A DNA stretch of 64,000 bases, from contig OZ287749.1 in the NCBI GenBank assembly GCA_965649765.1, positions 40,548,001 through 40,612,000 on the forward strand, in the 5' to 3' direction. The notes beneath the pieces were generated by a model, which was not told the DNA's origin, ran no database searches, and saw nothing but the letters and a program-made list of their open reading frames with translations. A program made the translations under genes and the position numbers. Positions 30,022-54,639 of the stretch are shown one piece after another. Numbering within the stretch: position 1 is the first letter of the stretch; every line of letters begins with the position of its first letter. The stretch is from Bispira polyomma (taxonomy: Eukaryota).

Positions 30022-30221
30022 NNNNNNNNNNNNNNNNNNNNNNNNNNNNNNNNNNNNNNNNNNNNNNNNNNNNNNNNNNNNNNNNNNNNNNNNNNNNNNN
30101 NNNNNNNNNNNNNNNNNNNNNNNNNNNNNNNNNNNNNNNNNNNNNNNNNNNNNNNNNNNNNNNNNNNNNNNNNNNNNNNNNNNNNNNNNNNNNNNNNNNN
30201 NNNNNNNNNNNNNNNNNNNNN
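30022..30221. other. Assembly gap (200 N)
   Basis: Run of N, followed by two copies of a 22-bp unit (TTATGTATAAATGTACCCAAAC) at ~30240-30285. Confidence 1.
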
Positions 30222-33200
30222 CAGAAATACTGACAAAAGTTATGTATAAATGTACCCAAACTTATGTATAAATGTACCCAAACTTTCGTGTAAAAATGCA
30301 ACACTTGTTGGTTACTTCCGGGAGGAGAAGTATCATAGTTAATCAATCAATGTATCTTCTAAATTACTCCCTACCCCCCACACACATAGATAGACTCTCA
30401 CCACAGACATCCAGATAGACAACAGGAATTCTCCAGAATCCCATCCCTAGTCTTACCGTAGTCTCTAGTATTCTGTGAAGGCAAGAGATGGAGCAGCTGA
30501 CCTGAATAACACAATGTTGTATTGTATTGCCTGTATAAGGCATTTTTCACATGTCTTTTTGATGCCAGTAGCATCTTCTAAACCACAACATCAGCATCGA
30601 TGAACAAATAATTCTAATTATTACATGCTGTAATCTGAATACATGACCATTACCATCAGTAGGGAACCACATGTTGACATCTTGTCCAAGTATCATCTAA
30701 TGACTATAATAGTGTTAGAATTTCTACTAGTAATTGAACCAGTGACCGTCTGATTACTAGACCTACTCGGTAATTCACTGGGCCTGATAATATGTTCTTC
30801 GAATCTTACAATTTCTTATCGTTCTTATTCGAGGAGGTATGTTCTTAGTATCTGAGGGATCTAGTGCTGGCAAGAAAACATGATCTTTTACTTATAAGAG
30901 TACTTTATGATAGCATAATACTTGTACATACATGTATTTAAACATTTAATTGTTTCAAATTAAATGAGATTTCCTGGCAAACTTTTGAGCCTTATACAAG
31001 GCTATATATATCCCCCCCCCCCAACCTCTATCCTCCTAGTAATAAAGACTGGTGTGTAAGGATATACCAGCTGTGAGGAGAGTTTCCTTATTACCAGGAA
31101 GGATCTAAAAGCCCTCATCATGCCTTTCTAATTTACACCTAATTTGTGAGATAACAGCAGATTTAGCTTATCATAACACCACACTGAGTACGTGTAGTAG
31201 TTGCTCTGGTCAGAACACCAAGGGTGGTGGTGGCTGTGGATAGGCAGATAAAGACCCACACACTTGCTGTGGACTGGAACCTTCAAATTTGAAGGTGATT
31301 ACTTAAATGAAATCCCTCTTCCATCCCAAATCAATTCTCCATGGGTCACCAATTATACAGGTCACGTGTCCGGGGTTTTAAATTATAGAGACAGGAAGAT
31401 ACTATGAGTACGTCATTGGATCGTCGACCATCCACCACCATCTCCACGCTTTTATAACTATCATGTCTTTGTGTCGTGGTATATCAATACAATACGTCTC
31501 TTATACATAGGTCTTATTTATTACCCCAATCGCCGCTTTGAATGTGTCACGAATAAATCTGTGACGAAAAGTAGCCCTACGTGTCGAAACGTATCGAAAT
31601 GTTTTTTAGAAACGTTTGTATACGTGAGGATCCGTAGCTCCGTCACAATAGTTTTCAACTGTTCAGAAATACTACCACAGATCTGCCATTCGCGGTGTGT
31701 TTAGGAGGGTTTTTTCGTCACTTATTAGTGTCAAACGGATAACACAAACGTGACTTAAATTTTTTGATTTTAAAATGTGACGTCTGAGGGAAATCAACAG
31801 ACGAATCGGCCAGTTTTATCTGTTCTTTCTTCGAACTCCACAAATAGCACATAGAAGACGTCTCATAACTAAAGACCAACACGTAGAACCTTGATCCTTG
31901 ACTATCAGATTATTATGTCAGATGCAATTCTATCCCCAATTCATTTAGTATGTTGTCCCATCTGCTTGTTGTTTAAGACGTGATTAGCTCTGATTTGCAG
32001 AATCTGAGTTGTTTGAACTGTTGTCCATAATGTTCTCATATAGTGGTAACCACACCGGCCAGGTGATAATAAGGTTTCTAAACCCAAAATAGGTACACAA
32101 AAATGCGTGTATTTCGGTGGGTCCTCTCTGTAGGGAGAGTTAGACAAGGGTTTTGTTATTTTATTTAAAGGGGGAAAGTGACCTGGCTAATTAGCTGTAT
32201 GTCAAGGTCAGTTCTGGATTAAACTAGAAATATACCTATAATTCTACCATGAATAGCGAAAGTATTTTCTGGGGTAATAGATTGGTTGAGGTATCTATAT
32301 AAATGTAAACAACTACCCTAAAAGTTTTGTTTACATTTACTTTGGAGATTAAAACATCAAATCAAGAGTGTTACTTAAACACGTTATAGACGTAACAACC
32401 TGAAACACCTGCATTTGCTTTACGTTTTCAATTTATCTCCAAAACAAAACAAAAAAGTTTAAGAAATACTACAGTTAAATATAGCATGTTATAACGCTTT
32501 TTGAAGATGCCTCTCTGTATTGTTGTCTGGTTTTCCAATCTGTGCAAAGGATTTGGACAGATGTGTTAATAAGAGCAATGTAAACATTTCCAACAAAAAA
32601 AAAAACTCACTAAAAAATTTCCTTGTCGCGTGTGGCCAACAGTATGTCAGTTCATTAACTTTTGCATAAGAAACTCTAGTTACATATATATACACGTTAC
32701 ATACTACACACACACACATGCTATTATATTTGTCTAAAAAGTGGAAAGATGAATTCTACCATTCGTGTAAAACTGTCAAAGGGGGTGTCAAACCGCGCGC
32801 TTATTTAAAATGTTATTCAAAAATGCAGGAAATGAACCCTGGCTTTTTGTCAGCTTGCCAGAAGTTGGGGTGGGGGGGGGGGGGGGGGGTGTATACATGT
32901 ATATGTGAGTATAAAGTTTGTTGTCTGTGCCCGCCTTCTATAATGGATATGGCACGCGACAGACGTATTCCCGCCAAAAGAAAAACCAAACACTTTTTGT
33001 TGGACTGAAGTGGCTTTTAAATCAATCTTCTGTTGATTTTGTCGTATTTTTGTAGTAAGGCGGGAGTATTGTGTAGGTGGGACAGAGTGGGGTGGTAAAT
33101 AGTAAAGGTTTTTGTCAATGAGCTAATAATATATACACACCAAGGGGATTTGTGTTGAAAATAGGTTTTAACCCAACTGTAGTTATTATAATACTCAAGG

Positions 33201-35299: not shown

Positions 35300-35362
35300 A
35301 TGGGTCCTATGATGCAGTTGTTGGGACTGTTGTGGATAACATTTCTCATCTGTCCTTTTCAG
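35300..35362 (+). CDS. Delta: Delta coding exon 1 (signal peptide [21 protein letters not shown])
   Basis: Strong Kozak context GCCATGG; hydrophobic leader; donor CAG|GTAATT in phase 0, matching exon 2. Confidence 0.85.
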
Positions 35363-38300
35363 GTAATTAACATATATATTATCTATATTGAATATGGTTT
35401 TATAACGAGGAACGAAAACATTGTATATATGTGGTTTTCTAAATTTCCTGGTTTGCAAATGTTTTGTAAATTGAATATAATGCCTAATGTAAATATTATT
35501 CCTGATTTTAAATTTTTTTAAAGCTAGTAAATATGACGGCTTATAATGTAATAGAATTTTGAGTGACATATCTGACTTAAAATTGAGAAGCCAACATTGT
35601 TTTAAAATTAACCAAGTACAGTATCACTGATATATATGTATTAGTGTTAATTCTCAGGGTGAATTTAATGACAAAAAGGGGTGCAGGCAAGTATTTGGGA
35701 CTAGATCCTGTAGTTGCCATGTACAGTACAGTAGGTCTGTTCTAACTAAAAAGTACAGTCGATAGATTATAGAAGGTGATTTTATTCAGGAAGCCTTTAG
35801 TTTGTGCTGATGATAGTGTGCTGATGATAACGTATATTCTCCTAATCTGTTTTTGCAGGTAGTACTTGGTTCAGGAGCTTTCGAGTTGAAGCTCAATTCA
35901 TTCATTAATCAGTTTGGATTAAACGATGAGGAGAATTGCTGCAGTGGCGTGAAGGATCATGATGGCCAGTGCACACAAAAGTGCCGTACTTTTTTTAAGA
36001 TCTGCCTCAAGCAATACCAGTCTCGTATCACGGATAGTACGTGTACCTTCGGAAGTGTTACAACACCTGTGATAGCCGAAAATTCATTCACCTTTACGGA
36101 TACCATCAATAATCCAAAGTTCAACATCAGTCCGATAAAGTTTAACTTTGCTTGGCCTGTGAGTACATACATATTATATATATATATAACTTGTTTGTAT
36201 TTATAATGTGTGTATGTGTGTCTATGCATCTTTTATAAGGCTGTCAGTACAGTAAGTTTAAGGGAGTATGTACGATTTGTGCTGATAGCAAAAGCTCAAA
36301 TATTGTACAGTAAGTTTAAGGGAGTAAGTTCCGACTCGTAATGAAATAAAAAACTCGAAGACAGAGGGACAAACTAAAACCTCTATTATCTGAACATGGT
36401 GGTGGAGAGTACAGGAGCAACATTTTTGTTTGGATAATTGAAGGTTTTACACAATAGAAGAGGCTATTTTACTATAAAACAACAGGAAATTTGGCAAAAT
36501 GAAAGCGTGTGTTCACAAAAATTGAATAATCGGATAATAGAACGTCGTTTAATTAGAGATTCTACGACATATAATAACCCTATTAACATTTTAGTTAAAT
36601 TTGTTCTATTGTTGTTTCATAAAAAAGAGTGTTGCAGTAAGGAATGCATATAGGGAGGGGTATGGCAGTCATTAGTTTTGTATTTCAGCATTTATTTGAA
36701 CTGATGCAGCCTTTTGACAAAACACTGCTAGTTTGTGATATTGGAATTTGGACAATAATATTGCAATAGGGAGGGAAGTTCTGTAAGTTCAACCCTGTTT
36801 GATAGTACAGTGCTCTACTATATTACAGATGTTTCTATTATTTACTGAGCACATTACCACATGATTGTAATACTGTACACTGCGTTTGATAGGGGAGAGG
36901 AGTGTGAGTGGAGGGGGGGGGGGGAGGGGGTTGTATGCACTGTGCAAACTAGAGGATAATTGCCCTGCATATTGACATCAAATATGCGGCAAAAATAAAA
37001 ATGACGTAAAATGAAACTAAGCATTGATAGGTTTGAATAAAAATTGAGGAAAAATAATCGATGTTGGAAGTGTGTTGAGAGTTAGTTGTAGTGTGTGTGT
37101 ATGTGTATGCTTGGAGATCACTAACTGCCAGCTGCAGTTCTAAAAACGAAATGTACACAGATTTGGAACTGTTTCCCTTGAAAATTTGGCATGACGCCAA
37201 CAGGCGATTTTAGGGGGGTGTAAACAATGTGCAGTTTTCTTGAAAAAATTGGTAGGTAAACTTCGAAGAGACCAATGTCACACTTTAAAAAAGTGCTGCT
37301 CAATTTACATCGAGTTACTTTTTGAAAGGACAAGAGCTGTTTGAAGTTTCGGAAGAAAACTGATTGGTTATGGTACAGGCACTCTGGGCCACATATATAA
37401 AGCCTACTTCCCAAGGTCACTTTGATTCAGTAATTAGGACCAACCATACAATTCCAGGATAGCTGTACTGTATAGGATATGAGAGAGTAATTATTGTTGA
37501 CACTAGAAAGGTCACCTGTTATAAGGCTCACTCTCTGATAACTAATTTGGGCCACTGGGAGTCATCAACATGACATAAATTATGTATCAGTTCATGAGAA
37601 AACAGCAGTTTGTAATGAGCTTCTGAGGTAAACTCAATGCCCCTGATAAAGTCCTAAATACTTATCATCAGGTTTGTCAGACACATCAATTTTTTGTCCA
37701 CCAGATAATGATGGGCGGAGGTTTTTATCATTTGTGATGTTCATAACCTGTCACTGACAGATTTCTAACCTCCCTCCCCAGGAGTATAAGGGGCTAGGGT
37801 GAGTAACTTTAAAAAACAGCGAAACCTTCGTTATCCAATTTAATTTTCTGAACACATTTTTACTCTCTCAAAATTAAATGTCCCTATCATTTTATATCCA
37901 TACACAATCTTGCACGTCCAACATGTTTGGATAATAGAAGTTGTACTGGTCATACCATGTCATACCTAGAGATAGAAGAAGTTGTCGCATATAGATATGA
38001 ACACACAGAGATAGCTGGGTATTAGTTTTAGCAAATAAACTGGCCAGTATTTAGTTAGCAAATGGTAGCCGATTCTCTGATACACATGGGAGAATACGTT
38101 TAATTGTGACCAAAACTGTATAAAATGTCAAAGGTTAATACTTAATGGTGAGGTGATGGTTTCTTCCACTATTCGAATATATTTATCAAAAAAAAAAAAA
38201 AAAACTACAGTAGAAGAGTGGATGCAGGGTGTTGGGTTGGGAGAATGCAGGGTCCCCAGTAGTGGGCTGTCTTTTTCAATGAGAAAAATATCTCCACTAT

Positions 38301-41300
38301 AAGACGGGGTGGGGTTAAGGGTGGGGGTGTACTAGTCCACCCTGTGGTGTGTGTCTGCCTTTACGCAACAACTCATCTGAAAAGATTGTCCTGGGAACAA
38401 ACTGAAATAAGAGTTTTCTCTGCACTGGACCCCTTTTTATGTGTGTGTGTGTGTATTAGATGTGTATAGAGAGTGTGTTGTATGGGTAAAACGACAGATG
38501 GTCCCAGAGAGTATATGCATAATACCTGTGTAATGAAGAAGGGGATTATAGTGAATCATTTATTAAACTGCAGTGGCAATATATAGGTTTTTTTCAACGA
38601 TATGCAACAGAAAAGTCCTCACAATGAAAAAATACATGTATATCGAATTTATATATAAAAATTGTTCACGGTAGTTTTTTTCCCCAGGTTCGGTAACACA
38701 GTAAAGAGGAAGAAGACAAAAGTCTTATGAATGAAAGCATGGAAAGAACATTGGTTTCTATGTAAAATACCCTGTACCAATTCGAGACTGGTTTAAAGAG
38801 GAATTATTTTGATGTAATATTTATGAAATATTATCTTCATTTTTCATTTTGAATAAAATTAATGTGTACTTTTTTTCTGGTATCGGAAAATATAACTTGC
38901 TGTATGTATTAGTTTAATATTGCAGAGGTATCTGTCCGCACACACAAATACATGTGTACAGTATACAGATCCAATATAATGATGTTATTATAAGAGATGT
39001 ACAGTAGAACCTCTATTATCCAAACTGCTATTATCTGAATATTCAATTTCCACTCTCTCAAATTTATGTTTTCATCATGTTTCATACTAAACTGCCTCTT
39101 TTATTTTATAAACCTTTATTATCCAAACAAATCTTGCTCTTCCAACATGTTTGATAATAGACGTGCTACTATATTTTTAAATAAAGTCTTTAGAAGACCT
39201 AGTAATATTCAGTATTGACCAGAATTCCAATGACTACGTACCGGTATTTTTGTGTACTGACTAACCTTTGTTTTGTCTTTCAGGGGACCTTTACCTTGAT
39301 CATAGAAGCATGGCATGACCTCAGCAATGTTGACCCCACTCAAGGTAAATAACTTAAATGCTCCCCCAAACCTTTATTTAGAACATAATATTGTCTTTCT
39401 AGATATATGGAATCACAAAGTATTTGTGGAAATTTTAGCGGTAAAAAAATTGACTAATATTTTTAAGGAATTCACCATCCAAGGTCAATATTTAAAATAG
39501 CTAAAATTAATTCCATTTGTGTAGTTTCTGTTATGAAATTCTGTTTTAACTGTATCACCTAAAATTTGGGGTATGTAGAAGTTATAGTGCACACTTTTCA
39601 CAGGATTTACACTGATTACCTGTATCTACAGCAACCAATGAGCCCAACTCACCTTAAAGGGGGGACGGAAGGCTTAGTAGTTAAAGCACCCACCATTTCA
39701 ATTAATGAAGTTATACACTGCTCTATTAAACTAACAGCTCCCAAGTTGTGGTAATCAGGGAGTTTCTGTGCCTACTAATGTGCATTGATTTACATGCGAG
39801 TTAATCTAAATCTAACTCGATCATCATCGGACATTAGAGCCAGGAGGGGGTGGGAGGGCTTATGGGTCTATCGTAATATAACAAAGGTCTTTACCACCTT
39901 TGTATTACATGGCCTTTTTCCTCCCACACAGTGAGACGGGAGATGAGAGAAAGCTAGTAACACTGATGAAATCGTGATAATTACAGGGAATTATTGGATT
40001 TCCAGAGAAATCACATCTCTGAAATACCTTGGCTATTTAAGCCGATGGAAGTCAACAACATAAAACACCTGCATTGTCTGTGCAATGTTATTCTCTTAAC
40101 GGTTAAGTAAGGGATAAGGGTAAGGTGAGGTGGGGAGAATGTCAGTTACTAAATATAGTAATACTGGGGCTTATGTTTTTACATTCTGCAGTTATATAAC
40201 AACCCGTTGGGGCGTGTCAGTGACTTCTCTGCCACTATGGCCTAGTGGGGTAATAGCACGATAGTTTAGGAGCACAGAGGTCCTGAGTTCAATTCTAGCC
40301 TGGGGTGACCAGGTATAGGTAGATACATAGTGGTTCGGATGGCCATTTCAAGTGGCGGTCATCTGTCATGATTTGGTCCTCTCCCCAGTCGCAGACTTAA
40401 AAATCCTAAGCGACGTTGATAAAATGGTCGTTCCCAAGTCTGTCTCTTCAGTTGAGGGGACTGATAGTTAACTGATACTGGTTAGCAGTCAGGAAAAGGT
40501 TTATACCATTTGAATAAACTACAGTACAATGATATGCTTTATTGTATATAGGTACACATAAGTCTTGAGTAAGGTTGTTCGATGTTAAGCATTGTTTGCT
40601 CAGTAAATGAGTTTTGTACACTGGTTACCTAAGCTTTGTACCTAAGCTTCCATCCAATTAAACCTTCCCCTTTGGTTCCAGAATTTTGTGATAGTGGTGA
40701 TAGATTCATGTGTTTCCTTGATAAAAGTCAGTACACATGTACTTATCAACACCAGGTTGAAATGAGAGATGAGGTTATTATTATCAAAGCCTGCCAAGCA
40801 ATGTGCTGGCCACACTTTGTACTGCTATTTATTATTGGCTTCTAAACAATCTGCTGAAATATCTACTGGAAATTTGACCGTGGATTTGTCCATAAGAACA
40901 AAAGAAAACTCAGTCATTTTCTCAGCTGTTGATTTGTAAGTGTGAGGCTCTGCTTTTTTTGGTATTGGGTTAACGTCTGTAGCAGCTAGCTTCCGATAAA
41001 TGGATTCATTGTGCACTAATACAAGACCTGACTATGTAATAGTGCATTAATATATTGGAATAATAATAGTACTCAAGAAAATCCTTGTTAAGTGTAGAAT
41101 ATATGCATTTGTTCTTGCCAGTATTTCACATTATTTGATGTTGCTAAAAAGATCTGCATATTGTTTTTGTTGATAGGATTGTTATTAATTTTTCACTGAA
41201 AACAACCATATATTTGCTTCTGAATCAGTACAAAGAGAGTAAACGAATTTACAATCTCTGTGGATTTACAAGCTTATCAAGAAACAATCAGATAAGTAAT

Positions 41301-44300
41301 ACTGAGTCAACAAGTAGCTATTCATTGTAAAATCTCAAGATATAACTATGGAGTAAGATGGACTAGCTAGCGTTTTGCTTTCCTCTCTATAAAAGTTAGA
41401 TAAGATGTACTGAACCAGAATCAACCAAAAAATAAACTGAACAATTGTTCTAAATACAAGTTAAGTATACTATATACACTCTGAATTCAACCCAGGGAAA
41501 TTATAGGGAAAAAAATCATGCAAGAATGCAGCTTTTGCACCAGAATATATCTGTAAAAGTTGAATGAGTTTATTAATATTAAAGTGGAGGGTTTATAACG
41601 TGTACTCTGTATCCCCTTCTCCCCCCTCCCAGCCCTTTGTGACCACCATAGCCTCAGTGTGTTACCATGAATAAATGCTCAGGTGATAAGGAGCTGATAA
41701 TTCCATAAAGAAAACAATCAGGTATTTTCGTTCCCACAGTGATAGGACCCTCCCAGAAAAAACATTTAGTTCAGCATGCACTGAGTAGGTTTTTTTCCAG
41801 TGGTATAAGTGTTGTACTGGTCCTAACCAAATCCCTGCATTTTTTAAACTGCATGCACATCGGGAAAACAAACAGCGGACAACTGAGCCACATTCAGGTG
41901 TCGCTGGCACTCAGCCACTATATTACAGTATAACGTAAACTTATCGGTTGATGGCTGCCAAAAATTAACACCCTTCCCAGAGGACAAGGCCTCTTTCAGA
42001 TTTGTAATGCTTGTAAACAAGATCGAATGTAGTTAATTGTTGTTATAAATTTAAATACAAATACAAAAAAAAATACAAAATAAATTTGAATGGTTCCTTT
42101 TTGTGAAGTAGATAAAATTGAGTTTAATGGATGGCTGTATGTCTTTTGGCACGATCAAGGTTTTGCAAAATAACCGCCATTGGACTTCCATTTAATAGTT
42201 TACAGTGCTTAGAACTTCCTGGCGTCTGTTCCTGCAGTTAAGATATTTATACAAAGTGATAAGTAAATCAGGATTTTTAAAGCCAAATAAAGCAAGTCAG
42301 TGTGAGTGTAGTGTTTGGATGTGTAAGTGACACCTTCAAATTTTCTGTGCAACTGTGTGTATTGTTTTAATGTATGTTCTGAGTACTGGCAAAACCAAGG
42401 TGCGAAGAGTGAATACTTAACCTTGTTATTAAACAGTGTTAATTGTGTGAGATGTATAGATTGAGAAATCTTTAGTACAATGTCATGTGACCTGTGGGAA
42501 CTCAGCATGTGTTATGCAGAGAAATGTCCAGGGTTTATCTTAAGCTAACAGGTTTTTATGTACCAAAAAAACAACCTTAATGAGGCTGTATTTAGAATTA
42601 AAGTGGGCCCAACTTAGTTAGACATAGTAAATGGACAGATTTCCATCATTATACATGTATTACCTTATTGTTATGGCTAAATACACAAATTATATAAAAT
42701 ACTGATGTTATTAATATTGCTTATAAGATAATTGTGGAGAGAAGTTTACACAAGCTTTTTGGCACATACTTGACACACTTTGAGTATAATTTTAAACAGT
42801 CAGCTGATTAACAGGGTTGACTTTAAATTAAAAAACCTTTGTTACACTACATATTTCTCTCCATGTAAAGGGCAAATTGAGTTAACTAGGCAATAACTAT
42901 AACAGGCTGTACAATTGTACATATGTATTAAAAACTTTTATTTCAAAGAATGTTAGTAGTTTTTTAAACTTCACTGTATTTTAAAACCTTTATATTGTGT
43001 TCAAATTTACACTCAACCAGCACCAGTAACTGTCATTCCCCTAGTTGAAGAGGGAGACTTGTGGATGGCGTTGTTTAGCCTGGCATTGGGATTTAGGGTA
43101 ACAATACAAATTTCATTAGATACTTTGGGACTTGTGTTCGTGGCTCATCCCATCTCCCTTTAATTCTGGCTATATTATGTTCATAATCTTATGATACTCT
43201 TTCTAATTACACAGGCAGTCCCAGAGAACTAATCAGTCAACTAGCGACGCAGCGCTCTGTGGTAGTTGGGGAGACTTGGCAGAATGACAGTTATACAAAC
43301 CACACACGGCTGGAGTACAGCTATAGGGTGGTGTGTGACACCAATTACTACGGATCAGAGTGTGCTGACCACTGCAAAGCAAGGGACGACAAGTTTGGGC
43401 ATTACACCTGTGGTCTAGATGGGACCAAAGTCTGCTTAGATGGCTGGAAGGGCACTTACTGCGACAAAGGTAGTTATATATACATTGTATACACAACAAA
43501 GGTAGTTATATATACATTGTATACATGACAAAGGTAGTTAGATATATATTGTATACACAACAAAGGTAGTTAGATATACTTTGTATACAGTAGACTGCCA
43601 GTATAACAATTAAGTCAAATGTCTGGTGTGAACATTCAAAAATACTAGTTGTAAGGTGAAAGTAGAAATTAGGCATAGGTAGAACCTAATGCTATAGGTA
43701 CTTCACATCATTGACTGCCAAGTACATGACACAACACTGCAGGGGATGACACAACACAACAGTCAAAATCACATCAAACATCACACAACACTACACAATC
43801 TATATAAATATTAAAGAAAGTGCAATGCCCGTTCAATATGAACTTAAATAATCAATACCAAACTATACATGTTTAAACTGTAGCATAAGGCCACAAAGAA
43901 TGTGAAGTGAGACTTGTCACCACACACAAAACTGTCTTAAGGTCAGCTTTGAAGCAGGAGGGACAGAGAAACAAACTACATCACCATGGTGTGTGTGTAC
44001 ACCTGTATGCAAAAAATCACCTTTTTGGCTAGAAAATTCATTGAGGAAAAAATAATAGAAAATACTCTTTTAAAGTTGTGACCAGTAGTTCTTGTCTGCA
44101 GACATTAGTGACACAACATCCTGATGTCACAGTACTTGCACTACATACATATATATCTATACAGCTGTGTGTGTACATTATATAGAATTATAGTCAGAGA
44201 TCTTATATATAATATGTATGAGTCTCTTGTCATCTGCCCTCAAGGCCTGTACGTAATGAAACTTACACTATAAGGTTCTCTGTACACACACAACCAACAT

Positions 44301-47300
44301 CTGTCACTGGTGTTGACATTTCTCAACAAGTAGAATGAAGTACCCTATGTAAATACCAACCAAAACCCAAAGGCAGATGTGGCCATCTCCATAGTATAGT
44401 TAGGTGTGTGGTAGAATAATGAACAAACCTTCACCCCACCCAACAAAATACACTTACTATTAGTCTTATTGAAGAAATATTACTAATACGGTAACTGAAA
44501 AACATACTTAAAAGTTTTTGCAGAAAATTTCATTAGAAAACAAAACATACAGACATTAATTATCATTCTCTAAACTTGTAAGGTGTTGTGATAGAAAATG
44601 GGGGTGATTCTGTTAATATGAGGTTATCTCATGTTTAAAGTTTTGAGACTCCTACTAAGTACATTTGAACCCTGTTAAGTAGAAGCCTTTTCAAAAACTC
44701 TACACTAACCCCATAGTGGTAATCCTATTTCTTTGTGCACTGCGTCTTTACATGTGCTCAGAAATGAACATATTAATAAGAGATGTAACCATTATAACTC
44801 GTGTGTTGACTGATGTAATTACTATATTCAATGTATAAAGTAATATGTTTTAAACCATGAATGAAAAGTGCTTTATAAAGAAATAAAATAGGTTCAAATT
44901 AAAGGTGGTTGTTAATACTTTTAATGCATATATAAATGAATCTGAATTTGAATTTCACCTAGGCAGATTTTAAATCCGCCTAGGCGAAATTAAAATTCAA
45001 CTAGACAAACTTGGAAAATTTTAATTCTGCCTAGGCAAGATTAAAATTTTGATTTTGCCTAGGCCAGATTAGAATTTTAATCTTGCCTAGACGGATTTAA
45101 TTTGGCCTGTGATATATATGCATTTACTGACTGTTCTTTACACTGTTGATTCACTTTCTCTGTCTCCTGTATATTCCAGCATTATGTCTGCCTGGCTGTC
45201 ATCCTGAGCATGGGTCATGCGACCAGCCCAACGAGTGCAAGTAAGTTCTTAGCAATATGAGTGACATTGATTGTAACTTAAACTTTACAAGGCTGCATCT
45301 CTCAAGCTGAATTGAGGACATGTAGTTGATGTTTGTTCTGTAGATTTGTGTAAAATTAACACTGGTTCCTTGGTACAATTCTGATCCCCAGTGTTTATAT
45401 CAGCTTGTTACTCTCACCGAAAAGATTATTGGTAAAATTTTAGGGATGAGAAATTTTATGTAGATATGAAAAGCATGAGATTTCAACTGCCCAGATTCTT
45501 ACAAATAAGACTAATGACAACGAGACCAAACCCCAAACCTTTCATTTTGTGCTGTGTTAAAGTTTGAACTGGTGTAAGTGATATGAACTCACTCACAAAG
45601 TGACGCAATGATCCTGTTAAAGGGTCCAGGAAGAGACCAAAAAAAAGAGACAGCAGATCAAAAAAGACTTGGTTGTGAGTGTTAGACAATATCGTTCTTT
45701 TCTTTCCCCATGCTAACCGTCTGGGGGAAGGAGACAAGTTAAAGTTGACACAACTGGGCTTTCTGGTGTCATTTGTCATATCAATAGCCTTAAAGCTGAA
45801 TTAATGGATGAAAGAGTGAAGGGGGGGGGGGGGGCGGGGTTACCCTTTTGTGGTTTAGATGGACACTCCATAGTTTGAGTGCTTCATTCACAAAGCTTAA
45901 ACCACAACTATGTGATTTGTTGCACGACAACATGTGCTCTTGGGGGCCGGGGAAAAAGACATAGACTTTAGATTGTTACCCCTCTCCACCTCAAATTCTC
46001 CCCCACCACCACTTCTCTGTCTTAAAAAAGGCTTTTACAGACTAGGTCTGGCACAACGTGATGTGACAGTACAAGTAATTTACGACAACTGTCCGATGCA
46101 ACTAGTGTATGTGTACATCAAAAGTGACACACTATATATTGATGAGGACTATCAGACACATTCAAATCATAGTCACATATAGTCATTTTCTTGTGTGATA
46201 ACTCTTTATCCATTACAACGAGCGATGGCGACGGGGAAAAATAGAAATGTTTTTAAATTAAGGTAAACCACCTTGCATCGTAAACTGCCGAGTCACTTCG
46301 TGGTTGGTGTGTATTTTACTATTGTTTTAATTTTTCGTTTCACACGTCACGTTTATCTTGGTCTGCAAAGAGGTTTACTCCTGCGACATTTGTGTACCTT
46401 TTACTCGCTGACAGTCTCAGTGGAGCTTTTCATGACAGCGGAGTCTCTTTGTTATTCACCTATTCAAAGACTTACCAGTACAATGTGTCTGGGGTTGTTC
46501 CCATGCTGCATGTTTGAGTTGGCGCGCGTGTGTGTGTACATATCTCTGGCCATGCCAGACACACTGTACAGTCAATGATGTATGGGGGCTTGGTCTACCT
46601 TTTGAAAAGAAACCAGTGGCTGGCATGAATTTTTTATTGGCCTCACAACTATATACATCTTACTAAAAAAAATTTATTTCCCATCTGTTAGTTAATTACT
46701 ATTCGGCAATCAAGCATAGGAGAGAGTTCCGGCTTTTCAAAAAAAATGGGCCTTTGATATGCAATCATATGGGGTGGGAACATCTAATAACTGAACGTGC
46801 TGAGAGGGCAGGGAAAAAGTTTGGATAATAGAAGGTTTATAACGTTGAAGAAATATTTCTCTATAAAAATAAATAGAAAAAAAAAGAGTTCATAAAATCA
46901 CCCGAGTACATGTGTACTATATTCTGATTGTTTGTTTGTTACAGGTGTAACCTTGGTTACCAGGGCACTCAGTGTGACCAATATGTATGTACTATATTCT
47001 GATTGTTTGTTTGTTACAGGTGTAACCTTGGTTACCAGGGCACTCAGTGTGACCAGTGTATTCCCTATCCTGGTTGTCAACATGGCAGTTGTACAGAACC
47101 CTGGAAGTGTGACTGTGAACCAGGCTGGGGTGGCATCTACTGTAACCAAGGTAACTACAGTAAAACTGCACTTTATCCTAGAGTGTGCATCTGAATAAAT
47201 GTCAACGTTAAAATGATTGTATCTGAAAGTCATTACAATGGTTGATGCAAAGTATTAGGAAAACAAATTACCCTCGTATTAAACACAGAATATGAATTGA

Positions 47301-50300
47301 TTCATTTAACACTTAAAGGCCCTTTGCAGTATACTTGTAAAGCTAACCTTTTTTTATTAATTGATAAATAAGAAGTATTAGTAAATGACTAAGTATGTAA
47401 CATATGTGTCACAGTAAGTTTGAAAGTCAGATCTGTGGCCGTATTCGCAAATATTCTTAAATTGCAATTCTCAGAATTTCCTTATAGTTTTAACTAATGA
47501 GATTCTTTAAAACAATTTTTTTTAGACAATTTTTTTGATTGAGACAAAAATTAATACTAGTCCAGACGAACGTGTGTTAATTATTTATCTCTAATGGCAA
47601 ATTAATAAAATATAAGAACTTAACGTTTACTTTATGGTAAAGGAACCAGTTAGAAACAGTTCCTCTTCTATTACATAATAGATTACGTAACATGAGAATG
47701 TACTCAGTTGTCATAGCAACAGTACTTTTGTCTGCAACATAAATCTATTGTTGTTTGTTTTTTATCTTAGAGGAGAAAAACTGTAATAAAACTTATGGAT
47801 TAATGAGAGTTTCCATGCATACAGAGCATCCACTTTTCTGTTATAAATATTTGGCAATTTATTTATCGAGTTTGATCACAGTATTAAGTGCTTGCTATTG
47901 TTTTTCATCATAGCTTTCAAAACAAATTTTTGTCCAATTTCTTTTTTTGTCGGCAGTGAAAGCAGTTTTACATCACCAGTTCAATGATGACGCCAGTTGA
48001 TTTCAATGGTCTTTGCCTTGATACATCAAATACTTTACTAAATAACCTCACTACTCTCTCAATAAAATATAATTGCTTCTTTTTTACAGTAAAGCGATGG
48101 CACAATATGTTTTTGTATATTAAACAATTTTAAATTATAAACATTCTTCTCTTTCTGAGTGGTCATTTCTTTCGAGAAATGAATGAGAGTTAATCAAAGA
48201 CTGTACTAACTTACTGTAAGAATCATAGTGTGTGACCAGTAATCCTTAAAGCAGAAAGCTTGACGCACCCATGAAAAGAGCATTTGTCTCTATTTTTGCC
48301 TGCTCAACCAATAGAAAGGGCTTTCTAAATAGAAAAAGTGTTTTTCAGTCTCTGACATTTTTTGGGGGGGGCATAATGTTTTTTATCTTTCACAGACAGC
48401 TTTTTTTTCTTCATCTCCAGTTTAATAATTAAGTGAAAAAGAATATGTGAAAATCATGTTTTTTTATGTCTTTACTAAAGGAGGTAAGGACCAGTTGGAG
48501 GTAGGAGAGTAGTGATTTTAGATAAAGGAGACAATGCAGAAATTTCTTTGCTTCTTTAAAAGGATAATATCAAGAGTTTTATGGCCGTAGGCTTCTAAAG
48601 TTACCGTTTTTTCACTTGAGTAACTTGGTGTCACTGTAATTTGAAACTATCACGTTTGATGTTTAAAGCAAAAATCGAAGTAGAAGGACTACAGTGGTTG
48701 GGTCGCTAAAATCAAATGCATGTAGTAAACAGACAGCTAGACTACCACATTTCACTGATACAGTTCTGTTTTTAAAGTAGGTTAGTCAGCTGTACTCAAT
48801 CGTATACAAATCAGATAGAAAGGTTGGGAACGTTCTCCTGAAAGTACTACAGTAGAACCTCTATTATCCAAACTTCTATTATCCCAATATTTACTTTCCT
48901 AAATTTAGATTTTCCTATTGTTTTATATTAAAATGCCTCTTCTATTTGATAAACCTGCTATATAATCTGAACAAAATGGTGCTATTGCAAGAGGTTTGGC
49001 AGAAAATGATGTTTTGCTGTACTAAATTGTAAGACTAAGTATACTGTAGAGTACTTGTGATTTTCCTTTGAAGACATTCATATCTAGTCAGCATTCTATT
49101 CAGCCTGTGGTGTACCCTCTTTCCAGATTTAAACTACTGTACCCACCACTCTCCCTGTGAGCACGGTGCCGAGTGTCGTAACACGGGTCACGGATCCTAC
49201 AGCTGTGAGTGTCTACCTGGCTACTCCGGCACCAACTGTGAGATCACCATCACGGACTGTGTTCACCATCATCCTTGCTCTAATGGAGGCACCTGTATGG
49301 TAAGTATCTACATCATTCACACCTAGTTGAAGGAAAAGATCAACTCATAATCAGATCAAATGTGGTGAAAAAAGATTAACTGTTTTAGATCAGCTTAGGT
49401 TGGTATCCACAAAACATCTAGGTTTTTTTTTATTATCAAATAATGGATTAACTTTGATCGAGCCAACTTGGTGAATTAAATTTGGATCAGAAAGTATCAC
49501 GTATGGCTGACATGAGATGTTTAAAGGAAGAAGAAGAATACAAAAAACAGATCAAATATATGATATTTCTAATCTTGATTTATGAATACCGATTTGATCC
49601 AAGGATCACTTGAAACCCTTTTTCTCAAATATGATCTGGTTTTGATCTGATTTGATCTGTATTTGTTAATACTGCCCCTGGCCAGAAATACACTTGGGGG
49701 AAACATTTAAGCTGTAATAAAATGGTACAATTTCTATTGGGGGCGTTGTATTATATACCTGTATTTATACCTGGGTTATTATTATTCCCAAATTACAAAA
49801 TAACATTGTTTACCAAAATCTTGTTATACTTTAAACTACATTGTTTTACTGTGGGAAACTACTTAACTAGATATAAGAAACACATTCTGGAGGAAAGCGA
49901 TCTCGGCCGTTTTAGTCGCTTGTTGTCCCAGTGGTCACATTGGTTGTTGTATTTCTTTCAGCCAGTAACTGAGGACAAGTACACATGCCAGTGTCCTCCA
50001 GGCTTTCAAGGTCCTCACTGTGAGTTTAGTTTCTCCTCATGTGAGGAGAACCCATGTCAACACAGCGGGTCGTGTAGTTCCCTACAGGAGGGCAGTGTGG
50101 GGTATGAGTGTACCTGTTTGGAGGGGTACACAGGAATCAACTGTGAATCGGAGATAGACGACTGTACGCCAAACCCTTGTAGTAACAGTAAGTACAAGTC
50201 TTTAGATTAGTCAAGTACAAGTCTGTGGATTAGTCAAGTACAATTCTTTGGATTAGTCAAAATACGATTCTTTGGATTAGTCGAAGTACAATTCTTTGGA

Positions 50301-53300
50301 TTAGTCAAGTACAATTCTTTGGATTAGTCGAAATATGATTCTTTGGATTAGTCGAAGTACAATTCTTTGGATTAGTCAAGTACAATTCTTTGGATTAGTC
50401 ATGCAAAGTTTCAGTTATATTTACAACATGTATTTGTAATTCTTTACTGTAAAGCACGTAATGTACGTTTATTTTTATGCGTTTTTATGCATTTTGAGTG
50501 CGAGAAATAAATAAATAAAATAATTAATAAAGAGTAAAAACATTTTGTGAAATCTTCACATATTAGGTGTCACCCGTCTCAAAGTAGCTTAATTCTATAA
50601 TTCACAAGACAGAGTGTGGCCCATATGCTGGAACCTTATTCTCAAAATAAAACAGTGCGGCACATTAATTTTTACTGAATATCTGCAGTACTCGCAGTAT
50701 TCCTTGAGATTTAGTGTTAATAATCAGTTTATATAAAAAAAATTGCATTCATACGCCATACATGGCCGCGCACCCAATCCAGTCAATTCTTGAATCATTC
50801 CCTTAAAAAATAAAGATGTCTCTTTTTCTCTCTTAGATGGAAGGTGTGTAGATGAAAGAAACGGTTTCCGCTGTGTGTGTCCGTCTGGTTTTACTGGGGA
50901 CAGGTGCGAAGTTAACGAGAACGATTGCCATCACAACCCGTGTTTAAACGGAGCCTCGTGCATTGACGACGTCAACGAGTTTAGGTGTCGCTGTATGCCC
51001 GGCTACCAGGGAAATCTGTGCGAGGTGAACATCAACGATTGCGACGGCTACATCTGTGCCAATGGAGGCACGTGCCACGACCTGGAGAACGACTTCATCT
51101 GCAACTGCCCGCCAGGATTTGGGGGTAAAGATTGCCGTGAGAACATCGACGAGTGTGCCCAGGGGCCCTGTCAAAATGGTGGACAGTGCAAGGATCTGGT
51201 CAACGACTTCAATTGTACCTGTCAGAACGGATACCACGGTAAAATGTGCCAGTTCCTAAAGGGCCAGACCGCCTACCCACCTCCTCTGTACAACGGTGGT
51301 AGTAATACTGCTACTACAGCAACCACCACCATTACAGGGGATAGTCGTACTACAGACGCGCATCACGGGGGACAAGTGAGTGGCAATAAACAGGAAGTAC
51401 GGGACCAGTCCGTCATGGGTCTACAATTAACAGTGTACATCTGTGTCGGGGTGGGCATCCCTTGCATCATTATCATTGGAATATTAGCGTTTTTGTTGTT
51501 CCGGAGGCGCAGGAAGAGACACGCGGAGAGCAGCAGCACTAGTACTAGTAACGTTCAGAAGGAAAATGAACGCAACGAGATAGCAAATATGAACAATAAG
51601 GCGAAAAGCATAGACACAGACTCAAGGGTGCTGCCGCCCGGGAGTGTCAGTTTAAAAATTACTAACGAAGAACAAAGTTCTTCAAGAACTTTAAACATCA
51701 ACAAAAACAATTTAAACATTGAGAGTCAAGTGAGTAATAAACTCTATCCAAAAGAACTCAATGTGAGTCAAAATAAAGACTATAGGCATTTAAATAAATC
51801 TAGAGAGCCGAAGGAGACGCATTCTTCTTCACATTCTAGTAAAATATTAGACTGTAATAAATTGGTTGCCCAGCAACAGGGAAGTCCGCACCAGACACCC
51901 TACTTTACATCTATGGAGTCTCCATGTGGCAGCAGTAGTAGTGAAAAAAGGTAAATATAGAAAAACTCTTTGAAACAAGAACCAGTGTAGAAGTGGAATT
52001 TCTCTCTTAACCAAGATCCAATTTAATGGTGTCAACATTCAAAAATATTGTTGCAGGCGATATGTTATACTGACGTATGACGTCAGTATGACATGATCGT
52101 ATGCTTTAGTTTGAGGATCGTCTGATATGTGTCGACCAGTAGATCTCAGAAGTGGTTGGGGTTTGTGGTCTGGTATTTAGGTAGAATGACCTGTTCCGCT
52201 TCTTGTTTTAAATTGAGGTATAAAAGTGGAGGTTAACCATTAGTAGAACCAAATCCTGTAGATGTTGAACATTTGACTTATACAGAGTCTACTGTACAGT
52301 CAAAACCCGTTTAAATAGAACTCTGTTTAGTCAAATTTATAGTCACTAAACTCCTGAAGCCTTATCTTTCAAAGTGTACCCAATTAAGTGGAAATTCTGC
52401 TGAAGTAGAGGCATTTGTTTTGGTCCCCTGATGTTCTACCTCAAAAGGGGTTGCAATGGTGTACTTCTTTAGTCCAAACCAACAAGTATATGATTCCTAA
52501 CCAACAAGTAAATCAATATATCCAGGTATGGTTTATGGGATGTAATAAAAATGTAATTTTCTTGACAAATAAAGAATGCAGGGTAGTTAAAATGTTACAG
52601 AACCTCTATTACGCGAATATTTGATTTTTTTGAATGAATTTCGACTCTCCCAATATTTCATAAACTTTCTATTATTCGAACAAAATTTCCTCTTCCAACA
52701 TGTTCAGATAATAGAGGTTCCACATTAGTAATAATAATATGATAAAAATAACCCAGATGATGTGACAAAAACAGGTAATGCAAGTTTTTGTGAAGTGTTC
52801 AAATATAACCCCAGGAGTACTTGTCAAGAGTGTAAACTTCATTTTGGACACTGTGAACCTATTTCTGTACTTCCTCTATCGACAATCAATTTCTTCCCTA
52901 GAAAGAAACATCTTCCCTTTGAACTATTTTCCCCACCATGTACATCTTATTCCCATGACACAATGATCACATGCTATATTAGACTATAATAAGATTATTG
53001 TCGCATCTCTAGAAGTTTCAATCTGAACCCACTTTAGTAGAAGATCAGACTGATTGCCTTGGTGTGAAGTTTGCGCCATATGTTCTGTTTCTTACCTGGC
53101 TTGTTATAAAAGGGACCTTGAGTGTGACTTCCACAGATCAATACATTGATCGGGAAATTTTTCAAACAATGGCATAAAAACTAGACATGTTATTATGCAA
53201 AGAGGCCTGGTGTGAGGGACAAAGTATGTTTTCTCACATAGCTCCAATTGGGGGAGAGGGGTGGGGTGTGTGTGTAAACATGAATGAAGGGTGTACCGAT

Positions 53301-54639
53301 TTGTCATTCGTATTCATCCACAAATGTCACCAGTGCTTTTTTCACTGCCAATCTAATGTTATAATATGAGGACAAGCTTAGACTTAGTCTAAAGATCTAC
53401 AGAGAGATAAAGCTCTAGAGAGTATAGTACCGTGGTAGATATAGGTGTCATCATTACAGTTATAATATGAGAACAAGCTTAGACTTAGTCTAAGGATCTA
53501 TAAAGAGATAAAGCTCTAGAGAGTATAGTACCAGGGTAGATATAGGTGTCAACATAACATTTATAATATGAGAACAAGTTTAATTTTAGTCTCAGAATTT
53601 ATAGAGAGATAAAGCTCTAGAGAGTATAGTACCGGGATAGATATAGGTGTCATCATCACAGTTATAATTTGAGAACAAGCTTAGTTAGACTTAGTCTAAG
53701 GATCTATAGATAGATAAAACTCTAGAGAGTATAGTACCGGAGTAGATATAGGTGTCATCGTCACAGTTATCAATAGAAATGTGTAGTCTCCAGAAGACAT
53801 CAATAAAACTTTACTTACTTTTACAGCACTGAATTGTCTGTGAAAACTTATAGGAGAGAATTTTCCTCTCAATTACTTCATTCTCCCTTCGAGGTGCTGT
53901 ATGCCATTGTGGTGTGGTGTAAATCTTTTTTTTTTATTATTATTCCTTCCAGACAAATGCAATCATTAGCTAACTTTAAGTGTTATTGATTGATTCTGAG
54001 CAGTTTCATTGGTAGTGAGTTGTTCCTAATATCAGTCGTTTTCTTCTGTTTGTAAATCACAAACTAGAATAGAAATGAGCTACTTTGAAGACGGGTTTGA
54101 CATGTGTTTTAACAACCAATTGGGGGAAAAAACAGTAACTACTCGCTAATGCCTTGTTCATATTAAGCTAAATTTTTGAATATTCTACAACTTAAATTCT
54201 GTTACTTTATCTTGCTACATTAGGCTATAGGTACGATAAATCTGTGTGGAAATTGGTAATAAAAAATGTTCATCTTTTATAAGGCCAGAATAGTCGGATC
54301 CAGTTTTCACATTTGATTTAGTGTGTGAATGCTTATTGTACGTCTCTTTATACTTAAGGATCTGTATATTTGGATCTGTAAATAAATATTTGGGCATACA
54401 GGCCCCATTTATTAAGATTTTTCTGGGCCAGTACAGGCATATTGTAATCCGGTCCCCCAAAAGCATATAACTAATGGCTGTGTTTCATCTCTTGTCTTTT
54501 CAGTGACCAGCCCCATGTCGACAATGTCCACGTAGTCAAGCCTTCAAATAAGGACTTGTGTTCCAGTTCCATTTACTATGTGGAAAATCGGCCCCAGATG
54601 CAGCAGTATACAGAAGGTGTTTTAGCAACGGAGGTGTAG
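35300..54639 (+). CDS. Delta: Delta (Notch ligand, DSL family); 10 coding exons: join(35300..35362,35859..36158,39284..39344,43215..43469,45180..45240,47020..47150,49127..49299,49962..50187,50837..51950,54504..54639), 839 aa
   Basis: Manual splicing gives one open frame (63+300+61+255+61+131+173+226+1114+136=2520 nt), all introns GT..AG with phases 0,0,1,1,2,1,0,1,2. Product has MNNL (SGAFELKL...[13 protein letters not shown]...[15 protein letters not shown]), DSL, 9 EGF repeats, TM and terminal ATEV. No vWC/cysteine-rich domain, so Delta rather than Serrate/Jagged. Confidence 0.95.
35859..36158 (+). CDS. Delta: Delta exon 2 (N-terminal C2/MNNL domain)
   Basis: Acceptor TTTTGCAG|; translates [17 protein letters not shown]...CCSG...[13 protein letters not shown]...[11 protein letters not shown]...FNFAWP; donor CCT|GTGAGT. 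Confidence 0.95.
39000..39173. mobile_element. MITE family A copy in Delta intron 2
   Basis: TA|CAGTAGAACCTCTATTATCCAAAC ... GATAATAGACGTGCTACTATA. More degraded copies lie at ~36376-36570 and ~37820-37948. Confidence 0.75.
39284..39344 (+). CDS. Delta: Delta exon 3 ([20 protein letters not shown])
   Basis: Branch-point-like CTGACTAAC, pyrimidine tract, CAG|; hallmark GTF.LIIEAWH motif; donor AAG|GTAAAT. Not in the ORF track in this frame. Confidence 0.95.
40228..40428 (+). mobile_element. tRNA-derived SINE (Delta intron 3)
   Basis: A box TGGCCTAGTGG (40238-40248), B box GAGTTCAATTC (40285-40295); the body aligns with the reverse complement of 12380-12566. Confidence 0.75.
43215..43469 (+). 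CDS. Delta: Delta exon 4 (end of C2 domain + DSL domain)
   Basis: [24 protein letters not shown]...[51 protein letters not shown]; donor AAAG|GTAGTT. Confidence 0.95.
43465..43590 (+). repeat. 32-bp tandem repeat x4 that includes the exon 4 splice donor
   Basis: Unit CAAAG|GTAGTTATATATACATTGTATACACAA at 43465, 43497, 43529, 43561. Confidence 0.95.
44923..45124. repeat. Palindromic CCTAGG-unit array bounded by a 12-bp perfect inverted repeat (foldback/MITE-like)
   Basis: AATGCATATATA (44923-44934) / TATATATGCATT (45113-45124) enclose ~6 GCCTAGGC-like palindromes spaced 21-30 bp apart. Confidence 0.65.
45180..45240 (+). CDS. Delta: Delta exon 5 (first part of EGF1)
   Basis: [20 protein letters not shown](K); acceptor TTCCAG|, donor |GTAAGT; candidate branch point TACTGAC at 45125-45131. 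Confidence 0.95.
46913..47055 (+). repeat. Tandem duplication (68 bp identical, 75-bp period) spanning the exon 6 acceptor
   Basis: TGTACTATATTCTGATTGTTTGTTTGTTACAG|GTGTAACCTTGGTTACCAGGGCACTCAGTGTGACCA at 46913 and 46988. Confidence 0.95.
47020..47150 (+). CDS. Delta: Delta exon 6 (end of EGF1 + EGF2)
   Basis: [43 protein letters not shown]; acceptor TTACAG|, donor AAG|GTAACT. Confidence 0.93.
48848..49021. mobile_element. MITE family A copy in Delta intron 6
   Basis: TA|CAGTAGAACCTCTATTATCCAAAC; the right TIR is degenerate (...GTTTTGCTG|TA). Confidence 0.7.
49127..49299 (+). CDS. Delta: Delta exon 7 (EGF3 + start of EGF4)
   Basis: [58 protein letters not shown]; TTCCAG| ... ATG|GTAAGT. 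Confidence 0.95.
49962..50187 (+). CDS. Delta: Delta exon 8 (EGF4 end, EGF5, start of EGF6)
   Basis: [22 protein letters not shown]...[12 protein letters not shown]; TTTCAG| ... ACA|GTAAGT. Confidence 0.93.
50190..50400 (+). repeat. 23-24-bp minisatellite x9 starting inside the exon 8 donor
   Basis: Unit AAGTACAATTCTTTGGATTAGTC; copies 4-6 and 7-9 form a ~71-bp higher-order repeat. Confidence 0.95.
50837..51950 (+). CDS. Delta: Delta exon 9 (EGF6-9, stalk, TM, most of intracellular domain)
   Basis: EGF repeats with Ca-binding-type consensus, Thr-rich linker, [25 protein letters not shown] (~51433-51501) followed by RRRRKR; donor AAG|GTAAAT. Confidence 0.95.
52596..52723. mobile_element. MITE family A copy in Delta intron 9
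   Basis: AGAACCTCTATTA ... ACATGTTCAGATAATAGAGGTTCCAC. Confidence 0.65.
53358..53770. repeat. ~101-bp tandem repeat x4 in Delta intron 9
   Basis: Units start at 53358, 53459, 53560, 53661 (GTTATAATATGAGAACAAGCTTAGACTTAGTCTAA...GATATAGGTGTCA). Confidence 0.95.
54504..54639 (+). CDS. Delta: Delta exon 10 (C-terminus ...[10 protein letters not shown])
   Basis: Acceptor CTTTTCAG|, phase 2 fits exon 9; [48 protein letters not shown], ending in the ATEV PDZ-binding motif known from vertebrate DLL1/DLL4. Confidence 0.92.

What the first reader, a model, noticed from the sequence alone, without database searches (positions are those of the whole stretch)
43465..50400. Tandem duplications sit on three of Delta's splice junctions
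Seen: three unrelated tandem repeats each begin at or span an exon-intron boundary (exon 4 donor x4, exon 6 acceptor x2, exon 8 donor x9). A small GTGCTGATGATA duplication also lies ~30-55 nt before the exon 2 acceptor. The only other multi-copy array in the ~17 kb of introns is the 101-bp repeat in intron 9. Inference: either a lineage-specific mutational process expands sequence at splice junctions, or repeat-encoded decoy splice sites act as a copy-number-tunable control on a dosage-sensitive gene (Delta haploinsufficiency is established in Drosophila).
Basis: partly seen in the sequence, partly recalled or inferred. Interest (0 to 1): 0.7.

Follow-up and report, generated by a model that had tools for sequence, protein, structure and literature searches.

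The report
Exon-edge "mirage" minisatellites, genome-wide
The repeats at this animal's Delta splice junctions are real but not special to Delta: about one in eleven splice junctions sampled across its genome carries such a repeat, a type known from lancelets, and they likely pile up because repeats touching an exon survive and grow, not because they tune the gene.

Summary
The repeats are real: read-derived contigs reproduce them. Two of the three copy a splice site (exon 4 donor x4, exon 6 acceptor x2); the exon 8 array starts at +3 and copies no donor. This is the amphioxus "mirage" repeat type, which this scan has met before in this genome (PAICS) and in others.

In 30 dynein and myosin genes modelled by homology, 125 of 1,362 junctions are spanned, so Delta's 2 of 18 is ordinary (P=0.49). 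Array outer ends are 3.5-fold denser in exon edges than deep in introns (gene bootstrap 2.5-4.6). The excess lies in expanded arrays (5+ copies, 7-fold); two-copy arrays show none (1.0). Edge-adjacent arrays without a splice-site copy are expanded too, and decoy GT/AG are not significantly conserved. Plain base coverage at junctions is not enriched.

Best reading: duplications arise anywhere but persist and grow at exon edges; splicing likely ignores decoys, with NMD as safety net (stop-free in-frame decoys 6 of 95, 15-18% expected). A Delta dosage dial is unsupported. No RNA was available.

The parts
43215..43469 (+). Delta exon 4 (DSL domain); authentic donor after 43469
43464..43589 (+). 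Donor mirage: 32-bp unit x3.9 (6 exonic + 26 intronic bases); decoy donors after 43501, 43533, 43565, each predicted to give a premature stop (aa 302, 245, 245)
45015..45090 (.).
45180..45240 (+). Delta exon 5
46913..47055 (+). Acceptor mirage: period 75, two 68-nt identical copies (32 intronic + 36 exonic bases); decoy acceptor before 46945 scores equal to the authentic one and is predicted to give an in-frame stop at aa 265
47020..47150 (+). Delta exon 6 (authentic acceptor before 47020)
49127..49299 (+). Delta exon 7
49962..50187 (+). Delta exon 8; authentic donor after 50187
50190..50401 (+). Edge-adjacent minisatellite: 23/24-bp unit x9 starting at +3 of intron 8; no exon sequence, no donor copy; one match in the genome search (itself)
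35803..35829 (+). 14-bp two-copy duplication about 30-55 nt upstream of the exon 2 acceptor
53358..53775 (+). 101-bp x4.1 array inside intron 9
35300..54639 (+). Delta coding span, 10 exons, 839 aa

Best explanation
Two of Delta's three repeats are 'mirage' minisatellites that copy an exon edge with its splice site into the intron, the pattern recurs at about 9% of junctions modelled elsewhere in this genome, and it likely arises because ordinary tandem duplications persist and expand when they touch an exon. Shown: two-copy duplications are evenly spread, arrays of five or more copies are about sevenfold denser at exon edges, and none lies wholly inside an internal exon. Inferred: short duplications form anywhere by slippage or break repair; selection keeps only those whose extra copies fall in the intron; an array pinned to an exon cannot be deleted whole and keeps an intact template unit, so unequal exchange has time to grow it (exchange seeded in the conserved exon may add to this). 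Inferred: the spliceosome picks the exon-proximal copy by position, and rare decoy use mostly meets a premature stop and NMD. The Delta arrays would then be tolerated passengers, not a dosage control.
For: Recurrence: 125 of 1,362 junctions spanned in 30 genes (82 donors, 43 acceptors; dynein 87 of 866, myosin 38 of 496). Outer ends 1.48/kb at exon -60..-4 (90 in 60,649 bp), 0.76/kb at intron +4..+60 (46 in 60,888), 0.42/kb deeper (531 in 1.26 Mb); P=9e-5 and 2e-21. Strict junctions: ratio 3.5, gene bootstrap 2.5-4.6. TRF-free 20-mer test: 61 of 535 at donors against 16 of 441 at +300. By copy number: 5+ copies 0.88, 0.40, 0.23, 0.20, 0.13/kb from exon edge to deep intron; under 2.6 copies 0.19, 0.15, 0.34, 0.17, 0.19 (interaction P=5e-9). 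Arrays shared with other loci show no excess (6 of 81, 9.4 expected); private ones do (113 of 350, 18.3 expected). Edge-adjacent arrays without a junction copy: median 6.0 copies (n=22) against 2.6 far away (n=231), P=0.003. Selection filter: 0 arrays inside internal exons; intronic part under 15 nt in 4 of 30 acceptor units but 23 of 65 donor units (lengths differ, P=0.005); nearest decoy in-frame and stop-free in 6 of 95 against 15-18% simulated (P=0.008, 0.001). Best decoy scores at least as well as the true site in 57 of 66 donors and 23 of 29 acceptors, so sequence alone cannot choose. Turnover: three near-identical myosin copies differ at one array by 12, 24, 16.8 units, and two mirages are called in one copy only. 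Precedent for silent decoys: PMC3087553 and PMC3902484 (passages), PMC1557585 (abstract).
Against: Base coverage is not enriched: 51 of 433 donors (12%) and 36 of 433 acceptors (8%) are spanned while arrays cover 15.8% of intron bases; the excess appears only when array ends are counted. Per-gene sign test is weak (20 up, 9 down, P=0.06) and genes differ strongly (0 of 82 to 14 of 74 junctions, P=6e-7). The growth-or-survival step is not shown: the polarity test was inconclusive (P=0.17). Decoy GT diversity is nominally lower than matched bases (0.083 vs 0.109, 52 arrays, P=0.18), no donor array lost all decoys (0 of 65), and complete loss is rarer than at codon positions 1-2 (1 of 185 vs 44 of 1,780, P=0.12), which leaves room for weak selection. 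Junctions come from my own protein-to-genome alignment, two gene families only, with no RNA; the null models are my own.
Confidence: 0.65

Rival explanations
1. Recombination-driven growth: allelic exchange or conversion starts in the conserved exon and misaligns in the adjacent repeat, so exon edges actively amplify arrays instead of only sheltering them.
For: Per-gene rate rises toward chromosome ends (rho -0.42 with distance, P=0.02), with exon GC (0.42) and with interior array density (0.55) in 30 genes; the excess grows with copy number (odds ratio 1.6, 4.5, 8.2, 30); the exon-side unit is as homogeneous as inner units (0.910 vs 0.908).
Against: Polarity does not differ significantly from interior arrays (P=0.17); the correlations are uncorrected and also fit a regional effect on all arrays; read contigs of 0.8-1.9 kb without differences suggest low heterozygosity at Delta in these samples.
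Confidence: 0.2
2. Functional decoys: the extra splice sites are kept because they send a copy-number-dependent share of transcripts to NMD or recruit U1 snRNP.
For: All four Delta decoys would give premature stops; donors outnumber acceptors 82 to 43; arrays that include the junction are about twice as dense as those just inside the intron; nominal, non-significant decoy GT conservation; stop-free in-frame decoys are depleted, implying some use; human repeats can alter splicing (PMC10078293, passages).
Against: Delta is at background rate (P=0.49); dyneins and myosins carry the same arrays; arrays without a splice-site copy are expanded too; decoy AG diversity equals controls (0.104 vs 0.118, P=0.65); the donor excess is also explained by harsher filtering of acceptor duplications.
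Confidence: 0.07
3. Splice junctions are mutational hot spots where duplications are born more often (R-loops, nucleosome or methylation boundaries, GC step).
For: Overall excess of array ends at junctions; donor units are biased to exon sequence (41 of 65 more than half exonic, P=0.002); two-copy arrays 15 spanning against 9.7 expected.
Against: Two-copy array density is flat (ratio 1.0); unit GC accounts for only about 1.2-fold (my arithmetic from the GC bins).
Confidence: 0.06
4. Artefact of assembly, of repeat calling or of my gene models.
For: No RNA check of junctions; one apparent both-junction array was a misaligned acceptor.
Against: Delta arrays are in read contigs; units are about 88% identical, unlike assembly echoes; the result holds with strict junctions, without TRF and in both families; two internal controls are flat.
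Confidence: 0.02

Closest known systems
Amphioxus 'mirage' minisatellites (Adh3, globins BflGb6 and BflGb9, PGBD5, troponin C). Seen: passages of PMC3087553 and PMC3902484; the original Adh3 paper was not held
   Same: Tandem copies of an exon-intron boundary, on donor or acceptor side, units of tens to about 160 bp, most keeping GT or AG, unstable in copy number; origin stated there as unclear
   Different: Described from a few lancelet genes; here counted in 30 genes of a probable mollusc, with a copy-number dependence, flat internal controls and signs of a selection filter. Correct splicing was shown there by RT-PCR and is untested here
Human F7 intron 7 37-bp VNTR (PMC1557585, abstract and outline)
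   Same: First unit spans the donor; identical downstream pseudo-sites, as at Delta exon 4
   Different: Single locus; use of the most upstream site shown by experiment there, only inferred here
Human splicing-associated tandem repeats, spl-TRs (PMC10078293, passages)
   Different: Defined by genotype-RNA association, which could not be tested here; the examples read act through protein binding or spacing
Intron gain by tandem genomic duplication (Rogers model, as described in PMC3087553 passages; PMC4974935 search listing only)
   Same: Duplicated splice signals are raw material for new introns
   Different: Mirages here sit on existing introns: 44 of 290 positions shared between paralogs against 50 of 245 unique ones (P=0.14); the one both-junction candidate was an alignment error

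Membership tests
Mirage minisatellite | Tandem unit spans an exon-intron boundary | tested here: met
   Exon 4 donor array (6 exonic bases) and exon 6 acceptor duplication (36 exonic bases)
Mirage minisatellite (exon 8 array only) | Tandem unit spans an exon-intron boundary | tested here: not met
   Starts at +3, no exon bases, no donor copy; filed as an edge-adjacent minisatellite, not a mirage
Mirage minisatellite | Extra copies lie in the intron and keep splice signals | tested here: met
   3 of 3 decoy donors and the decoy acceptor score equal to the true sites; elsewhere 65 of 65 donor and 29 of 30 acceptor arrays keep at least one intact decoy
Mirage minisatellite | Unit made on the spot from the host gene, about 10-160 bp | tested here: met
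   Units 32 and 75 bp contain Delta exon sequence; 117 of 123 spanning arrays share no sequence with the other sampled regions
Mirage minisatellite | Copy-number instability | tested here: inconclusive
   No variation at Delta exon 4 or 6 in 2 samples; variation between three recent myosin copies
Mirage minisatellite | Normal splicing is undisturbed | not testable with these tools
   No RNA run was listed; only protein collinearity
Splicing-regulatory tandem repeat (spl-TR) | Repeat length associates with splice-site use | not testable with these tools
   Needs genotypes with RNA
Splicing-regulatory decoy array | Decoy GT/AG conserved beyond neutral expectation | tested here: inconclusive
   GT 0.083 vs 0.109 (P=0.18), AG 0.104 vs 0.118 (P=0.65)
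Delta (DSL ligand) | MNNL, DSL and EGF domains, no VWC domain before the membrane segment, PDZ-type end | tested here: met
   Pfam hits on exons 2, 4, 9 with no VWC hit on exon 9; ATEV end shared with P0391. That this architecture separates Delta from Serrate is recalled knowledge

The most novel reading that the evidence does not exclude
Exon edges act as genome-wide minisatellite amplifiers in marine invertebrates: duplications form evenly, but exon-seeded unequal exchange actively grows those pinned to an exon, so that over half of the longest intronic arrays sampled (39 of 73 with 12+ copies) start inside an exon edge; about one junction in eleven is then a natural test of how the spliceosome chooses among equal sites by position, with NMD deciding which duplications survive.
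Probability: 0.3. Interest if true: 0.7.

Novelty: new member of a known kind. Interest (0 to 1): 0.45.

Why it matters
For Delta itself this is ordinary. The wider result bears on a small open question: mirages are described from a few lancelet genes with their origin called unclear (PMC3087553). The counts here separate birth from growth (two-copy arrays flat, 5+ copy arrays sevenfold enriched) and show signs of filtering by branch-point geometry and by NMD. My 8 literature searches (open-access full text only) returned no genome-wide count of this kind. With about 9% of sampled junctions carrying decoys of similar strength, this genome would allow a large test of position-based splice-site choice. 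In practice such arrays can mislead gene prediction, as one did here.

Tried and rejected
No RNA holder was listed, so there is no evidence on decoy use. The Delta exon 9 homologue search was crowded out by EGF-repeat proteins; the region-limited search gave 1 hit, so the clade (probable mollusc; dynein best hits gastropods at 68-70%) is only indicated. The polarity test was inconclusive. Raw decoy GT conservation (0.93 vs 0.81) was set aside as evidence of function once decoys were compared among themselves; it is expected when the true site cannot mutate. Intron gain: the 1 both-junction array was a misplaced acceptor. GC content as the main cause: about 1.2-fold only. Transposon origin of the exon 8 array: 1 match, itself (that search skips simple repeats, so weak). 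An array seen before a myosin exon in L088 ends 50 nt short of the modelled acceptor and was not counted. Rows left out: 6 of 19 dynein loci and 2 myosin loci were not fetched; 2 of 19 myosin genes dropped as near-identical copies; 146 of 681 introns failed the quality filter for the profile tests; arrays with period under 10 (under 15 in copy-class tests) excluded; unit analyses used 95 of 123 spanning arrays. PMC6823432, PMC12783039 and PMC6905558 (passages) had no junction-spanning arrays in the passages shown; PMC2812944 (outline) and PMC5663052 (listing) were not used as evidence. No supplements were read.
Full report
1. The gene. The window holds a 10-exon Delta, 35300-54639, 839 aa ending ATEV. 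Exons 2, 4 and 9 match MNNL, DSL and EGF families. The joined protein is collinear with a bivalve protein, P0391, 47% over 759 aa, with no insertion at the junctions in question. With dynein best hits in gastropods (68-70%), the animal is probably a mollusc; this is indicated, not shown. The genome is 1.035 Gb in 75 contigs.

2. The observation. TRF finds the three arrays. The exon 4 array (32 bp x3.9) copies 6 exon bases and the donor; all four donors score alike. The exon 6 duplication (period 75) copies 32 intronic and 36 exonic bases, so both acceptors have the same context. The exon 8 array (23 bp x9) starts at +3 and copies no donor. Use of any of the four decoys is predicted to give a premature stop, at aa 302, 245, 245 or 265. 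Read-derived contigs of 3 runs (at most 2 samples, 1 study) reproduce the exon 4 array in one piece and the exon 6 duplication with a junction contig and a double-depth repeat contig.

3. Out-of-sample test. I located dynein heavy chain and myosin genes in the genome, fetched 13 and 19 of them, and placed introns with my own protein-profile spliced aligner; in the one gene inspected, the 36 junctions looked like normal splice sites. After dropping 2 near-identical myosin copies, 30 genes gave 681 introns, 535 passing a quality filter. TRF arrays of period 10 or more span 125 of 1,362 junctions (82 donors, 43 acceptors; 123 arrays). At that rate Delta's 2 of 18 has P=0.49, and 3 of 18 spanned or within 30 nt has P=0.33.

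4. Is the background above chance? By base coverage, no: in dyneins 12% of donors and 8% of acceptors are spanned while arrays cover 15.8% of intron bases. By array ends, yes: 85 of 307 dynein arrays span a junction against 30-43 expected under two nulls. Outer ends lie at 1.48/kb in the last 60 exon bases, 0.76/kb just inside the intron and 0.42/kb deeper. With 331 strict introns the ratio is 3.5, gene bootstrap 2.5-4.6, though the per-gene sign test is only 20 to 9, P=0.06. A TRF-free test agrees. I take ends as the fairer measure, since an array's outer end marks where it began (inference).

5. Birth or growth? Arrays under 2.6 copies are evenly spread (exon edge to deep intron ratio 1.0); arrays of 5 or more copies are 7.0-fold denser at the edge and fall off with distance (interaction P=5e-9). 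Odds ratios climb 1.6, 4.5, 8.2, 30 across copy classes; 39 of 73 arrays with 12 or more copies span a junction. Arrays shared with other loci show no excess. Arrays within 30 nt of a junction but without a junction copy, like Delta's exon 8 array, are also expanded (median 6.0, n=22, against 2.6, n=231). So closeness to an exon, more than possession of a decoy, goes with expansion. Three recent myosin copies show fast turnover.

6. Selection on decoys. No array lies wholly in an internal exon; acceptor units carry longer intronic parts than donor units, as expected if the branch point must be copied along (established splicing knowledge). The nearest decoy is in frame and stop-free in 6 of 95 cases against 17.6% simulated, or 15.1% allowing 10% decay, suggesting occasional decoy use and an NMD safety net (inference). 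Decoy GT and AG match the true site better than other bases do, but among decoys their diversity is not significantly lower than matched bases, which is what a fixed true site and drifting copies would give; weak conservation is not excluded. Donors with mirages are slightly stronger than others (4.8 vs 4.1, P=0.014).

7. Mechanism. Shown: even spread of two-copy arrays, edge excess of expanded arrays, the two selection signatures. Inferred: ordinary duplication, survival only when extra copies fall in the intron, longer life and growth when pinned to an exon, position-based choice of the true site. Whether exon edges only shelter arrays or actively grow them is open: rates correlate with chromosome-end distance, exon GC and local array density, but the polarity test was inconclusive.

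8. What is known. Tandem repeats across exon-intron boundaries are the amphioxus mirages, reported not to disturb splicing and of unclear origin (PMC3087553, PMC3902484, passages); human F7 intron 7 is a tested donor case where the upstream site wins (PMC1557585, abstract). I reached the mirage reading, before the look-ups. This scan has unchecked notes of the same type in this genome (PAICS acceptors) and in urchin, annelid and other genomes; my counts show donors, not acceptors, are the commoner side here. Eight searches of open full text returned no genome-wide count; subscription papers and the original Adh3 paper were not seen.

9. Verdict. Observation partly confirmed; general process supported in amended form; Delta dosage dial unsupported. 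New member of a known kind, interest 0.45, carried by the genome-wide birth-versus-growth result and not by Delta. Limits: no RNA, two gene families, my own gene models and nulls.

Noticed in passing
window 46945-47019: The 7 non-matching bases between the two exon 6 copies create a donor-like GTATGT 40 nt after the decoy acceptor and 35 nt before the true acceptor: a proto-intron layout, probably too short to splice and frameshifting if used.
   Followed up: partly
window 53827-54000: An acceptor-like site about 50 nt after the 101-bp array opens a frame continuing exon 9 for over 50 codons; a possible alternative exon, with only a weak donor nearby.
   Followed up: partly
L102-L107, L110-L112 (G000 C11, C8, C13): One myosin gene lies in three copies on three chromosomes (coding 99.85% identical between two of them, long aligned stretches 98.6-98.9%); arrays differ in copy number between the copies.
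   Followed up: partly
window 48846-48935, 46810-46845, 44900-45100: Short dispersed repeats at very high read depth (bins up to 94,597 against about 15 for unique sequence in X1), probably miniature transposons; similar motifs recur in several Delta introns.
   Followed up: no
L052-L057 (G000 C5): This dynein gene has 0 of 82 junctions spanned and low exon GC (0.41); genes with low exon GC tend to lack mirages.
   Followed up: partly
L064-L069 (G000 C1): A donor-anchored array of about 158 copies of a 41-bp unit makes up 6.4 of a 6.8-kb dynein intron (low-quality junction call).
   Followed up: no
window 44839-44844: All three runs lack one base here relative to the window: a likely assembly error or allele.
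   Followed up: no
window about 30020-30230: A run of N (assembly gap or masked stretch) upstream of Delta.
   Followed up: no
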